Source of the DNA: a virus | Taxonomy: Duplodnaviria; Heunggongvirae; Uroviricota; Caudoviricetes | Virus record (IMG/VR): IMGVR_UViG_2737471839_000026 | Span: 1-20,966 of that record | Direction: 5' to 3' (one strand) | DNA: 20,966 bases | Shown: positions 3,001-6,000 of the stretch, in pieces | Position numbering within the stretch: position 1 is the stretch's first letter | Layout: the number at the start of each line of letters is the position of its first letter | Program-made: the position numbers

Positions 3001-6000
3001 TGTTTGCGCATTGATGCCGAGATACGCTTCCAGTCTTCGCGGTCGTTGTCGATAACTTCATTTTTTGCCCAGCGATGGATGCTGCCGTCAATGTTTCCGG
3101 CATCCACATCACCAGGCCAGAGAGCGTAGGCCAGTTCGTCATCCAGTGTTTTCCATGTCTGCTTGTATTCGCGATGAATGGCAGCAATGACCAGGCTGAT
3201 TTTTCCTGTTGAATTTTCAGTGTGCTGTTGATTGACTCTGGCGCGGGCGAGATCAACAACAGACGTGTATTTTCCGGTTTCCTTGCGTTCACCTTCGCGA
3301 CGTTTTTTCCAGATGCGCATCTCTGCCTGAATTTCGGGCCATTTGGCACCAGGCTTACATTTATGCTTAACCCACCCGATGGCATGCAGCTTAAGCTCCG
3401 GATACATGGCGTTAACTTCTGGCATTTTCATCAACGCTTCAACGATATGTCCGTCGAATGTTGCCATGTCTTCCTGCAACAATTCCTGTGCGCTAATAAC
3501 CATATCAACGGTGATGTTTTCACATGTGTCGAACTTAACCAGGACCGCGTTCTGTACTTCAGGGGACAGCTTGTCAAAATTGACGTTCATCGGATCGGAT
3601 TCTGGTTCGACCGGGACAAAGGAAGCGCCTTCCTCATCCCAGCGGTTTTCCAGCATATATTCGGTATCCCAGGAGTCGATGGCTGGGCGGGGCATGCCGG
3701 GTTTATCCTCGCAGACAAGAAATTTATAAGCGCAGTCCTGAGCAGCCGGATATTGCTCCAGGAATTGCCAGGTAAATTTGGCTCGGGCGCGACGTTCGTC
3801 GCCGGCTTCAATGGCAGTGGCTACAGCGACTGCACCTTCTTCCTTTATTGCCTGTTCGTCCGGAATGGCGGCGCAAATAAAGACTTTACTCATTTTGTTT
3901 TAACCTCATTACAGATTTAAGGGTGAACAAATCCCTGCCATTGCTGGCATATAAAAATGAAACCGGATATTAATTACGGTGCTGTTTTAAGTCCTGCCGG
4001 GATTTCGTTATTGTCCATGCGAATAACTTTATCAACCGGATAACAGTTGCCGGGAATTTTCTGTTCCGCTGCGGCAGCCATGCATTCTTTCATTGAGTCA
4101 TGTATACCAATAACAAGATCGACTGGCTCGCCTGTATTAAGAAAAACTGTCAGAACGAGTGCAAATACTGTATTCATTGTCAGCGTCCTTTTTGCATCAG
4201 GCGTAAACGGGCCAGCATTGAAACAATGCATATTTGATTTAATAGCTCCCGTTCGTGTTTTCTCTTATTAATGGCATCTTCAGTAAATACAGGGTTACTG
4301 ATTCTGACACCAATTTCAAAACAACCTTCAGACGTATTAACGTTTGGTAATAACGTTTCCATTATCGCGTCCTCAACAATGAATTTTGTGATACGGTGCC
4401 TGGTGCCTCCAGGTGACGTTAACCAGTTAACAATTAACGCCGGATACAGAGAACCCACCCATAAGAACCAATACGGAAGTCAACTGGCCTTTTTAACTGT
4501 TCCGCGTGCGCTGAGCCGCATTCACCGCATCACAAAATTCACTTTAAAAAGGGCGGGTATCACAAGGGAAAACAAAAAACGGATACCCGCCAAAAGGTAA
4601 TCAACATGGGTTGTTGCAGCGGGTTTGTCACTTAAGCGTATGGTCAACCTGACAACCCGGTGCCACTAATGGGGTAAGGATAACCCCGCCATACTTACCG
4701 CCGCGCCATTTCGCGGATTGCCACAACCGGAAGCGCACGGTCGACGAAAATTTAACGACAGGCTATCTATAAACCAGCTACCTCGCCGTACGCTTTCGCG
4801 TTGTGTGCCTGCTTTTAACCACGTCAGGCGAGGTGGTTCCTGTTATTCCCCAACAACAAGAAATTTGTATAATCCGGATATCCCCAACAACGAGAAGAGT
4901 ACTCAACGTGATAGCAGAACTGTCAGCGGCTATGGCTGCGATAAAGGAGACAGCTGGTCTCGCTAAGGTTATTAATGACGCAAAAACGGATGCAGAAGTT
5001 AAAGCCGCAACTATTGAACTTCAGAACAAACTAATCACGCTTCAGGCGGAGTGCTTCTCTCTTGGCGATGCGATCCGTCTTCGTAACGAAGAGATAATGC
5101 TTCTCAAAGCAAAAATTGCAGAATTCGAAAACTTTCAGATTCAGACTGAAGGTTATGTTCTTAACCAACTCGAATCGGGTGCTTTTGTATACTCGCAGGA
5201 GGAAACGGTGAATGGAGGCACTGTTACTATGCATCTTTGTCCAAAATGTTTTGGACAAAAGACAGTATCTATACTCCAGCCATTCCCGGTTAGCGAAGAT
5301 GCGCCTTTTCATGAAAGTAAGTGTCTCCACTGTGAAAACAAGTTTCTGATGAACAAAAATCCGGATTACATACCGCTGTCTTTTGATGAGATAGCGAGAA
5401 CACTGGGCAGTAATCCGTAGGTTATTGCTGTTGTGGATATCCAGATTGTTAAAGAACATGCCGGATTCTTATCCGTGTCCGGTGCACGACCACACGCTGT
5501 CACGTGTGGTCTCCATTCTCAACCAGTAACCTCAATGGAGGATAAAATGTCAGACAAGTTAATTAACCCATTTACCTATCCATCTGTTGCAGCTTTGAAC
5601 TTAACAGTTGAGTTAATTCGGGTTGGCAAAATGTCATCCCCCTTCAGAGGCGGCCAATTCAGTTATTACAATTCGCAATATATTGAAAGAAGAAAAACAA
5701 GCCGCTATGGAGAAGACTGATAAAGAGCAATAAAGGCTTCTCTGATTTCTTGAGCCAGTTTTTTAGCTGGCTCTACCTTTTCTGTCCCCCCGTCCAAAAT
5801 GAGAGATTTCAGTGTTTCTGCGGCGATTTTCTGAGTGTCTGGAGGTAAATCTTTAAATTCCATCGTCAACCTCATCAGTCAGTGTTTCTGGCTAACCAGC
5901 GACGGGCACCATTTTCGGTTTTAAACGTTTTGCTTTTGGTATACGTCATCGCGGTGAACGTGCCGTCCTGGTTGGGAAACACGCCGTATACCAGAGATTC

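What the first reader, a model, noticed from the sequence alone, without database searches (positions are those of the whole stretch)
4840..5720. Plus-strand accessory ORFs embedded antisense in the early-left arm, with their own TATAAT promoter
ORFs 4908-5420 (coiled coil plus C4 zinc ribbon) and 5547-5720 are transcribed opposite to the int-xis-exo operon, and a perfect TATAAT (4868-4873) sits 35 nt upstream of the first. Oppositely oriented, self-promoted genes in this position of lambdoid prophages are typically lysogen-expressed cargo such as superinfection exclusion or anti-phage defence genes. This is a candidate for that role, not a demonstrated one.
Basis: inference. Interest (0 to 1): 0.5.

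Follow-up and report, generated by a model that had tools for sequence, protein, structure and literature searches.

The report
Prophage Rip1-family anti-phage pore gene
The larger plus-strand ORF is a divergent member of the recently described Rip1 family, prophage proteins that sense ring-shaped assembly proteins of an invading phage and form a membrane pore.

Summary
ORF1 (4908-5420, GTG start, 170 aa) has long N-terminal helices and a C-terminal CxxC...CxxC domain. It matches PDB 9oox, phage HK446 Rip1 bound to T6 small terminase, by sequence (E 1.5e-11; profile 2e-20) and by fold (Foldseek probability 1.0). It falls in the same PHROG (1244) as HK446 Rip1 and HK620 HkaP, and dN/dS is about 0.2.

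Rip1 is a published prophage defence (Patel et al., Nature 2026). It is triggered by oligomeric small terminase or portal and forms a pore.

Family members sit antisense to their neighbours in four different phage contexts.

TATAAT alone is not significant: it occurs 9 times in the window. However, the roughly 105-nt leader (4803-4907) is far better conserved than the gene. It is homologous to the annotated P22 PsieB promoter region, with the -10 hexamers coinciding within 1 nt. The same leader precedes unrelated cargo in other phages: SieB, a BssS-like protein and two unknown families.

ORF2 (5547-5720) is a separate module and not a conserved partner. Here it is a +1C frameshift variant of a widespread 61-aa protein.

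Verdict: new member of a known kind. No function was tested.

The parts
4803..4907 (+). Conserved non-coding leader and putative promoter region of the cassette, homologous to the P22 sieB upstream region
   Evidence: It is 81-88% identical to homologous loci whose first 300 nt of CDS are only 46-66% identical. 1-nt indels exclude coding. The blastn match overlaps the annotated 'P sieB' of P22-pbi. The left cassette boundary was set against the empty site in strain R1.
4807..4836 (+). 30-nt element GCCTGCTTTTAACCACGTCAGGCGAGGTGG with overlapping hairpin potential, upstream of the promoter-like hexamers
   Evidence: It is unique in the window. It is also present upstream of HK446 rip1, HK620 hkaP and P22 sieB, and next to the ydfC start in vB_EcoS-640R1. 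Its function is unknown.
4844..4873 (+). Putative sigma-70 promoter: weak -35 TATTCC (4844-4849), 18-nt spacer, -10 TATAAT (4868-4873)
   Evidence: It aligns with annotated P22 PsieB (-35 TGTACC, -10 region GATAAACT), with hexamers coinciding within 1 nt. HK446 has TAAAAT at the same place. Most homologues have GTTAAT/TAATCT there. The consensus scan does not call it.
4848..4857 (+). Direct repeat 1, CCCCAACAAC, overlapping the -35 region
   Evidence: Two exact copies lie 34 nt apart. P22, HK446 and HK620 have ACCCCTACAG twice with the same 34-nt spacing.
4882..4891 (+). Direct repeat 2, CCCCAACAAC, between the -10 and the ribosome-binding site
   Evidence: This proximal copy is retained even in the one divergent leader (L024).
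4908..5420 (+). rip1-like gene: 170 aa, GTG start, N-terminal helices plus a C-terminal four-cysteine domain
   Evidence: phrog_1244, E 2.7e-54. PDB 9oox Rip1, E 1.5e-11, and 2.1e-20 with a profile. AF2 pLDDT 88. Foldseek top hits are 9oox_M and 9oox_L, probability 1.0. dN/dS about 0.2.
5421..5459 (+). Trailer of the cassette, up to the right boundary against the empty site
   Evidence: Homology with strain R1, which lacks the gene, resumes at 5459/5460.
5488..5511 (+). 9-bp perfect hairpin GACCACACG-CTGTCA-CGTGTGGTC in backbone sequence between the two ORFs, with no T-run
   Evidence: Read from the sequence. It is also present in RM9088 and, with one mismatch in the stem, in strain R1, but only partly in strain 41. 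Its role is unknown.
5547..5720 (+). ORF2: a 57-aa frameshift variant of a widespread 61-aa small protein (WP_001305873.1, phrog_17494); an independent module
   Evidence: A +1 C in the run at 5638-5642. The exact 57-aa form is on 19 contigs, against at least 1000 for the 61-aa form. It occurs without the rip1-like gene in strain R1. It is found in only a few of the 85 homologous loci.
5752..5773 (+). Terminator-like hairpin with a T-rich tail downstream of ORF2, lying inside the minus-strand ydfC-like ORF
   Evidence: Consensus scan only. The stem is weakened by one mismatch in strain 41.

Best explanation
Window 4803-5459 is a single-gene cargo cassette inserted antisense in the early-left (pL) arm of a lambdoid prophage integrated next to ompW. 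It consists of a conserved promoter/leader and a Rip1-family gene.

By homology with characterised Rip1 proteins, the 170-aa product would be made at a low level in the lysogen and would be harmless alone. When a superinfecting phage reaches late gene expression, the C-terminal four-cysteine domain would bind a ring-shaped oligomer of the invader (small terminase or portal). Rip1 would assemble as a second ring around it, and the N-terminal helices would form a pore in the inner membrane. The cell would die or lyse before progeny are finished, which is abortive infection.

Shown here: homology, fold, conserved cysteines, purifying selection, the antisense prophage context, and homology of the leader to annotated P22 PsieB. 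Inferred: expression in the lysogen, the trigger, pore formation and the defence phenotype.

ORF2 is a neighbouring, independent small cargo gene that is frameshifted in this window. It is probably not needed.
For: Sequence: phmmer against PDB chains gives a single hit, 9oox_L 'ring interacting pore 1 (Rip1)'. E is 1.5e-11 over residues 5-150 of 170 against 15-159 of 164. A profile of 23 homologues gives E 2.1e-20.

Fold: the AF2 model has pLDDT 88.4. The only significant Foldseek hits in PDB are 9oox_M and 9oox_L, HK446 Rip1 with T6 small terminase: probability 1.00, E 1e-7, TM 0.56/0.71.

Family: the window ORF1, HK446 Rip1 and HK620 HkaP all hit phrog_1244 at 1e-51 to 1e-54. The window protein is as far from HK446 Rip1 (26%) as HK620 HkaP is (28%). 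The four Cys plus Q46, L66, Y83, V94, Y95 and I122-L123-Q124 are invariant across the window, PhiR29, strain 41, HK620, HK446 and JBD30.

Real gene: dN/dS is 0.21-0.23.

Context: neighbours are on the opposite strand in every locus typed. The contexts are dicB|X|ydfA, yfdP|X|cI, cIII-side|X|N in HK446/HK620, and DNA-binding protein (presumed small terminase)|X|terL in JBD30.

Promoter: the leader is homologous to the annotated P sieB of P22. sieB is expressed from the prophage (PMC10883804).

Rip1 mechanism: taken from PMC13434031 section 5, PMC12908700 and PMC13601566, which cite Patel et al. 2026, Nature 651:1060.
Against: Identity to the characterised proteins is only 26-29%, so trigger specificity and even activity could differ.

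The N-terminal helix is only moderately amphipathic (18-residue hydrophobic moment up to 0.34, no transmembrane segment).

This subfamily has an extra C-terminal helix (residues 159-167) that is absent from HK446 and JBD30 Rip1.

The -35 is poor and the consensus promoter scan misses the site. Most homologues have GTTAAT rather than TATAAT.

PADLOC 2023 has no hit, but it predates Rip1.

I could not read the primary Rip1 paper. The mechanism is therefore taken from a review and two citing papers.
Confidence: 0.72

Rival explanations
1. A Rip1-fold protein that serves the resident phage rather than host defence, for example a checkpoint or timing device acting on its own terminase or portal, or on lysis, during induction.
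For: Family members sit next to packaging genes in Pseudomonas Mu-like phages. The characterised ligands are packaging proteins. The gene is conserved under purifying selection.
Against: In lambdoid phages the gene is far from the packaging genes. It sits antisense in the pL arm behind a PsieB-like promoter, which is the layout of lysogen-expressed cargo. The slot holds interchangeable unrelated genes and can be empty, so it is not essential to the phage. Published work reports defence phenotypes.
Confidence: 0.1
2. A defence or exclusion protein that occupies the sieB slot but works by a mechanism other than ring-triggered pore formation, because 26-29% identity does not guarantee the same trigger or effector activity.
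For: It diverges strongly from the characterised members, and the N-terminal half is very variable (dS 2.1-2.7 against 0.6 for the C-terminal half). It has an extra C-terminal helix. The slot's other occupants act differently; SieB stops macromolecular synthesis.
Against: It aligns end to end with Rip1, including the N-terminal helices and all four Cys. The fold match is to Rip1 only. There is no match to Pfam SieB, whereas P22 SieB hits PF14163 at 4e-29.
Confidence: 0.13
3. Silent or decaying cargo: the cassette is not expressed or not active in this prophage.
For: The adjacent ORF2 is frameshifted. The -35 is weak, the start codon is GTG and the SD is modest.
Against: ORF1 is intact and identical in DNA to the RM9088 copy, and the exact protein is recorded on 55 contigs. 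dN/dS is about 0.2. The leader is under stronger constraint than synonymous sites.
Confidence: 0.05

Closest known systems
Rip1 (ring interacting pore 1) of Escherichia phage HK446, gp37, PDB 9oox (Patel et al. 2026, Nature 651:1060)
   Same: Same PHROG (1244) and same fold. Same architecture: N-terminal helices plus a CxxC...CxxC C-terminal domain, 164 against 170 aa. It is a stand-alone gene antisense in the early-left arm of a lambdoid phage. Its upstream leader is homologous, with the 30-mer, two direct repeats 34 nt apart, and the -10 at the same position.
   Different: Only 26% identical. The position in the arm differs: between N and the cIII side in HK446, between dicB and the ydfC/ydfA-like genes here. 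This subfamily has an extra C-terminal helix and an invariant C49. The trigger (T6 small terminase for HK446 Rip1) is unknown here.
Rip1 homologues of Pseudomonas aeruginosa Mu-like prophages (e.g. JBD30 gp30, DMS3, D3112 orf25)
   Same: 29% identity, tblastn E 3e-13, over 92% of the protein. The Cys and core residues are conserved. The gene is antisense to both neighbours.
   Different: It lies between a DNA-binding protein (presumed small terminase) and terL in the late region. There is no PsieB-like leader. Reported escape mutations in Pseudomonas phages map to portal.
HK620 HkaP, annotated 'putative superinfection exclusion protein'
   Same: Same family (phrog_1244, E 8e-51), same antisense arrangement and a homologous leader.
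   Different: 30% identity in the alignment. As far as I found, it has not been characterised experimentally; the annotation was by position.
P22 SieB and its promoter PsieB
   Same: The same slot logic: antisense in the pL arm, with its own promoter. The upstream region is homologous, including the annotated promoter and the paired repeats. It is a prophage-expressed abortive exclusion function.
   Different: The protein is unrelated: Pfam SieB PF14163 against no hit for ORF1. SieB has the Esc/sas self-protection arrangement (Esc is annotated; the sas antisense RNA is from the title of Ranade and Poteete 1993 as listed, and from memory). I saw no counterpart here.

Membership tests
Rip1 (ring interacting pore 1) family | Significant sequence homology to an experimentally characterised Rip1 | tested here: met
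   The only PDB hit is 9oox_L, at E 1.5e-11 (single sequence) and 2.1e-20 (profile), covering residues 5-151 of 170. It is in the same PHROG 1244 as HK446 Rip1.
Rip1 (ring interacting pore 1) family | Same three-dimensional fold as Rip1 in the Rip1-small terminase complex | tested here: met
   AF2 model with pLDDT 88.4. Foldseek against PDB gives 9oox_M and 9oox_L at probability 1.00, E 1e-7, TM 0.56 (query) and 0.71 (target). The next hit has E 0.33. This is a monomer model only.
Rip1 (ring interacting pore 1) family | Small single protein (about 160-170 aa): N-terminal helical half, C-terminal target-binding half with CxxC...CxxC | tested here: met
   Helices at 2-23 and 28-79, a beta domain at 84-150, and C111/C114/C139/C142 invariant across the six aligned family members, including HK446 Rip1 and JBD30 gp30. 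Zinc binding itself was not tested.
Rip1 (ring interacting pore 1) family | Amphipathic N-terminal helix able to line a membrane pore | tested here: inconclusive
   The N-terminus is rich in Ala, Gly and Ser, as in HK446 Rip1. The hydrophobic moment reaches 0.34, against 0.42 in HK446. There is no transmembrane segment (maximum KD19 of 1.06).
Rip1 (ring interacting pore 1) family | Prophage-encoded stand-alone gene | tested here: met
   It lies in a lambdoid prophage next to ompW. It is a single-gene cassette bounded at 4803 and 5459 against an empty site. There is no conserved partner gene.
Rip1 (ring interacting pore 1) family | Assembles as a 12-mer ring around an oligomeric phage protein (small terminase or portal) | not testable with these tools
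   No multimer or complex prediction was available. The feature is known only from the literature on HK446 Rip1 with T6 small terminase.
Rip1 (ring interacting pore 1) family | Non-toxic alone; on infection it permeabilises the membrane and aborts the infection | not testable with these tools
   This needs an experiment. It is described for characterised members in PMC13434031.
SieB superinfection exclusion (Pfam PF14163) | Match to the SieB protein family | tested here: not met
   ORF1 has no Pfam hit apart from a sub-threshold DUF641 match. P22 SieB scores 4.3e-29 on PF14163.
SieB superinfection exclusion (Pfam PF14163) | Antisense position in the pL arm, with the PsieB promoter region upstream | tested here: met
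   The leader aligns with the annotated P sieB of P22-pbi. This is a shared slot and promoter, not shared protein ancestry.

The most novel reading that the evidence does not exclude
The roughly 105-nt PsieB-like leader (30-mer element, two identical direct repeats 34 nt apart bracketing the -10) marks a conserved, self-promoted cargo slot in the early-left arm of many enterobacterial lambdoid and P22-like phages. Unrelated payloads are swapped in it: SieB, divergent Rip1 alleles, a BssS-like protein, phrog_5286 and phrog_34441. The nearby small plus-strand genes of the ORF2 type (phrog_17494, phrog_4274) may be further cargo; these lie in the dicB-ydfA interval but were not shown to follow the leader.

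The uncharacterised payloads would then be new defence genes. The paired repeats would be operators for an unknown regulator. The antisense placement inside pL would act as a self/non-self switch: pL transcription from the induced resident prophage would silence the gene, while it stays on during heteroimmune superinfection.
Probability: 0.3. Interest if true: 0.6.

Novelty: new member of a known kind. Interest (0 to 1): 0.35.

Why it matters
It gives a function, by homology, to a 'hypothetical protein' that has DNA-level relatives in about 14% of complete E. coli genomes (736 of 5426), including O157:H7 prophages. It also extends the Rip1 family to a divergent enterobacterial subfamily sitting in the dicB-ydfA interval.

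A more general point is that the shared PsieB-like leader gives a simple sequence handle for finding lysogen-expressed cargo in lambdoid prophages. It also nominates several small unknown families as defence candidates.

For this locus alone the result is an annotation, not a discovery.

Tried and rejected
- **Protein family libraries on ORF1.** Pfam, NCBIfam and PADLOC (2023) gave nothing usable: DUF641 at E 0.028 and CdsZ at E 0.033, both far below cut-off, and no PADLOC hit. PADLOC predates Rip1, so its silence is uninformative.
- **Rfam.** At gathering and at permissive thresholds it found no RNA family in 4800-4910 and no DicF.
- **Leader as a structured RNA.** Folding the leader as RNA gave z = +0.22 against shuffles, so there is no evidence for a structured 5' UTR. 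The homologous leaders vary too little for a covariation test, so I did not build a covariance model.
- **Leader as coding sequence.** The idea that the leader is the N-terminal extension of the 205-aa ORF from 4803 is rejected. 1-nt indels in homologues break that frame.
- **Antisense and overlapping ORFs.** ORFs 5031-5459(-), 4718-4966(+), 5366-5503(-), 4778-4906(-) and 4271-4600(+) have no PHROG hits and are taken as spurious.
- **ORF2 as a partner of ORF1.** Rejected. It is absent from most homologous loci, is replaced by an unrelated 69-aa ORF in RM9088, and is present alone in strain R1.
- **Literature.** The primary Rip1 paper and Ranade and Poteete 1993 are not in the held library. A search for hkaP/HK446 found nothing relevant.
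Full report
**Observation.** The window is the left arm and early region of a lambdoid prophage. Its closest relative in the complete E. coli genomes is a prophage of strain RM9088 integrated next to ompW (99.5% identity over 4700-5563). That record annotates integrase, excisionase, an 823-aa exonuclease, a DUF1482 protein and DicB on one strand, and then a 513-nt 'hypothetical protein' on the other.

In the window these are:
- int, 1-1131 (-)
- xis, 1109-1357 (-)
- exonuclease, 1422-3893 (-)
- DUF1482, 3974-4177 (-)
- dicB, 4180-4362 (-)
- the two plus-strand ORFs
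- a ydfC-like ORF, 5705-5875 (-)
- a DUF1391/ydfA-like ORF, 5875-6105 (-)

ORF1 runs from GTG 4908 to the stop at 5418-5420. ORF2 runs from ATG 5547 to the stop at 5718-5720. TATAAT is at 4868-4873.

The TATAAT alone means little. There are nine in the window, about the number expected by chance. The two-hexamer scan does not report the site because the -35 is poor.

**What ORF1 is.** Pfam, NCBIfam and PADLOC (2023) give nothing usable, but ORF1 hits PHROG 1244 ('unknown function') at 2.7e-54. It has more than 200 close homologues in Enterobacterales, nearly all named 'hypothetical protein'.

A sequence search of all PDB chains returns a single hit, 9oox chain L, 'ring interacting pore 1 (Rip1)'. 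E is 1.5e-11, aligned almost end to end. A profile of 23 homologues raises this to 2.1e-20.

An AlphaFold2 model (pLDDT 88.4) shows two N-terminal helices (2-23 and 28-79) and a small beta domain carrying the two CxxC pairs. Its only significant Foldseek matches in the PDB are 9oox_M and 9oox_L, 'Escherichia phage HK446 Rip1 in complex with the Enterobacteria phage T6 small terminase'. Probability is 1.00, E 1e-7, TM 0.56/0.71, and the next hit has E 0.33.

HK446 gp37 (Rip1), HK620 HkaP, the PhiR29_1 homologue and a 36%-identical homologue from E. coli strain 41 all fall in phrog_1244 with comparable scores. The window protein is 26% identical to HK446 Rip1, and HK446 Rip1 and HK620 HkaP are themselves only 28% identical.

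Across the window, PhiR29_1, strain 41, HK620, HK446 and Pseudomonas phage JBD30, the invariant residues are the four cysteines, Q46, L66, Y83, V94-Y95 and I122-L123-Q124. dN/dS against three homologues is 0.21-0.23, so this is a real protein-coding gene.

A library-wide profile search finds 2383 cluster representatives at E <= 1e-3. Among phage genomes the family is in Pseudomonas Mu-like phages (DMS3, JBD30, D3112, MP38), HK620/HK629/HK630/HK446, Klebsiella phages and a Rhodobacter phage. DNA-level relatives occur in 736 of 5426 complete E. coli genomes.

**What Rip1 does (literature).** I could not obtain the primary paper (Patel et al. 2026, Nature 651:1060). A 2026 review summarises it as follows (PMC13434031, section 5):
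- Rip1 is a prophage protein that is not toxic alone.
- On superinfection it disrupts the inner membrane.
- Escape mutations map to portal in Pseudomonas phages and to small terminase in E. coli phages.
- Cryo-EM shows 12 Rip1 monomers around an 11-mer small-terminase ring.
- The N-terminal part forms amphipathic helices, and the C-terminal half contacts the terminase.
- The complex releases dye from liposomes.
- Homologues are widespread in proteobacterial prophages.

A conference report and an Avs2 paper agree. Here the N-terminus is Ala/Gly/Ser-rich and moderately amphipathic, like that of HK446 Rip1, and has no transmembrane segment. This is compatible with the model but not decisive.

**Context and orientation.** In the 85 sequences carrying a homologue (the window and 84 fetched loci), every neighbour I could type lies on the opposite strand. 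There are two main contexts: yfdP(-)|X(+)|cI(-) in PhiR29-like phages (63 loci), and dicB(-)|X(+)|ydfA(-) as in the window.

In HK446 and HK620 the gene is antisense between the cIII side and N. HK620's authors labelled it a 'putative superinfection exclusion protein'. In JBD30 it is antisense between a DNA-binding protein (presumed small terminase) and terL, which fits the review's description. Antisense embedding is thus a family trait, not a peculiarity of this window.

Comparison with strain R1, which has the same backbone without the gene, bounds the cassette at about 4803 and 5459. There, 657 bp replace a 47-bp segment.

**The promoter question.** The 105 nt before the GTG are 81-88% identical to loci whose first 300 nt of CDS are only 46-66% identical (third codon positions 35-48%). 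This includes a Klebsiella phage and the 36%-identity strain 41 allele. One-nucleotide indels rule out coding.

The leader contains three features:
- a 30-mer (4807-4836) that is unique in the window;
- two exact CCCCAACAAC repeats 34 nt apart (4848 and 4882);
- the TATAAT, which lies between the repeats.

HK446 rip1 and HK620 hkaP have a gaplessly alignable leader. It has the same 30-mer, two ACCCCTACAG repeats also 34 nt apart, and TAAAAT where the window has TATAAT.

A sensitive blastn of the leader hits 164 phage records. In P22-pbi (AF527608) the match overlaps the annotated 'P sieB' promoter. In the alignment, P22's -35 TGTACC corresponds to window TATTCC (4844-4849). P22's -10 region GATAAACT corresponds to GTATAATC, so the -10 hexamers coincide within 1 nt. 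[quoted passage not shown]

Most homologues carry GTTAAT/TAATCT there, so strength probably varies. As RNA the leader folds no better than shuffles (z = +0.22), and Rfam has nothing there.

**A shared slot.** The same leader precedes unrelated plus-strand cargo in the same antisense position:
- SieB (PF14163) in P22;
- a 144-aa phrog_5286 protein in SfIV and Kati;
- an 83-aa BssS-family protein in Salmonella phage F1055;
- a 66-aa phrog_34441 protein in mEp460_ev081.

I did not find this described in the papers I could search, but I could not read the older P22/lambdoid literature. I therefore rate it as a lead, not a claim of novelty.

**ORF2.** It has a strong Shine-Dalgarno and ATG. Its first 32 residues match the 61-aa WP_001305873.1 of strains 41 and R1, and then the frame shifts because of an extra C in the run at 5638-5642. 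The 57-aa form is on record on 19 contigs, against at least 1000 for the 61-aa form.

The 61-aa gene occurs alone in the slot in strain R1. RM9088 has an unrelated 69-aa ORF (phrog_4274) at the same place. Most Rip1-like loci have neither. ORF2 is therefore an independent module that is probably damaged here. Its function is unknown (weak phrog_17494 hit only).

**Mechanism and confidence.** I put family membership at about 0.95. I put the full mechanism at about 0.7: lysogen expression from the PsieB-like promoter, sensing of an invader's oligomeric packaging protein, pore formation and abortive infection.

The trigger is unknown. The N-terminal half is much more divergent than the C-terminal half among E. 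coli alleles (dS 2.1-2.7 against 0.6). This subfamily also has an extra C-terminal helix.

One inference I could not test concerns orientation. The conserved antisense placement may let transcription from the induced resident prophage shut the gene off, sparing its own assembly.

**Verdict.** The gene is a new, divergent member of a family published in 2026, so it is not a new kind of system. Interest is modest; the conserved leader and swappable slot are the part worth following.

Noticed in passing
window 4540-4600, minus strand: In vB_EcoS-640R1 an exact DicF sRNA sits upstream of dicB (L003 2339-2396). At that position the window has a different hairpin plus T-run: GGCGGGTATCCGTTTTTTGTTTTCCCTTGTGATACCCGCCCTTTTT. 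Rfam finds no DicF, only a sub-threshold STnc100 match at 4330-4553(-) (34 bits against a gathering score of 47). This may be a variant sRNA at the DicF position.
   Followed up: partly
window 4803-4907; L091 1500-1608; L087 3350-3458; L086 3380-3488: The leader is conserved far beyond the coding sequence and is homologous to the annotated P22 PsieB region. The two direct repeats keep a 34-nt spacing. They change in concert between lineages: CCCCAACAAC twice here, ACCCCTACAG twice in P22, HK446 and HK620. That hints at a paired binding site for an unknown factor.
   Followed up: partly
L092 1607-2041; L093 1607-2041; L094 1608-1859; L096 1576-1776; L091 1609-2187: The same leader precedes unrelated antisense cargo in other phages: SieB, a phrog_5286 144-aa protein, a BssS-family 83-aa protein and a phrog_34441 66-aa protein. 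It looks like a swappable lysogen-cargo slot with a common promoter.
   Followed up: partly
window 5638-5642: A C5 run where strains 41 and R1 have C4 frameshifts ORF2. The 61-aa intact form is on at least 1000 contigs and the window's 57-aa form on 19.
   Followed up: yes
L003 2980-3009: The 30-mer GCCTGCTTTTAACCACGTCAGGCGAGGTGG also occurs in vB_EcoS-640R1 next to the start of the minus-strand ydfC gene, with no Rip1-like gene nearby. It may act as a mosaic boundary or recombination anchor.
   Followed up: no
window 6294-6775, minus strand: A ParE-family toxin (96 aa, PF05016) and a PaaA2-type antitoxin (63 aa, PF21217) lie just left of the repressor-like HTH gene (6793-7293). This is another accessory module in the immunity region; it is annotated RelE/ParE-RelB in RM9088.
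   Followed up: no
window 16839-17085, plus strand: Three tandem tRNA genes in the late-regulatory region of the prophage.
   Followed up: no
window 4908-5420: Among E. coli alleles the first roughly 180 nt (N-terminal helices) are much more divergent than the rest. Most blastn matches start at nt 182, and dS is 2.1-2.7 against 0.6. This suggests intragenic mosaicism or faster turnover of the helical half.
   Followed up: partly
L002 9787-11202; L005 8235-8788: Related prophages that carry Rip1-like genes also carry other defence-type cargo further right. Strain 41 has an AAA ATPase plus a retron-associated HNH endonuclease, and O55:H7 RM12579 has a SIR2-family protein.
   Followed up: no
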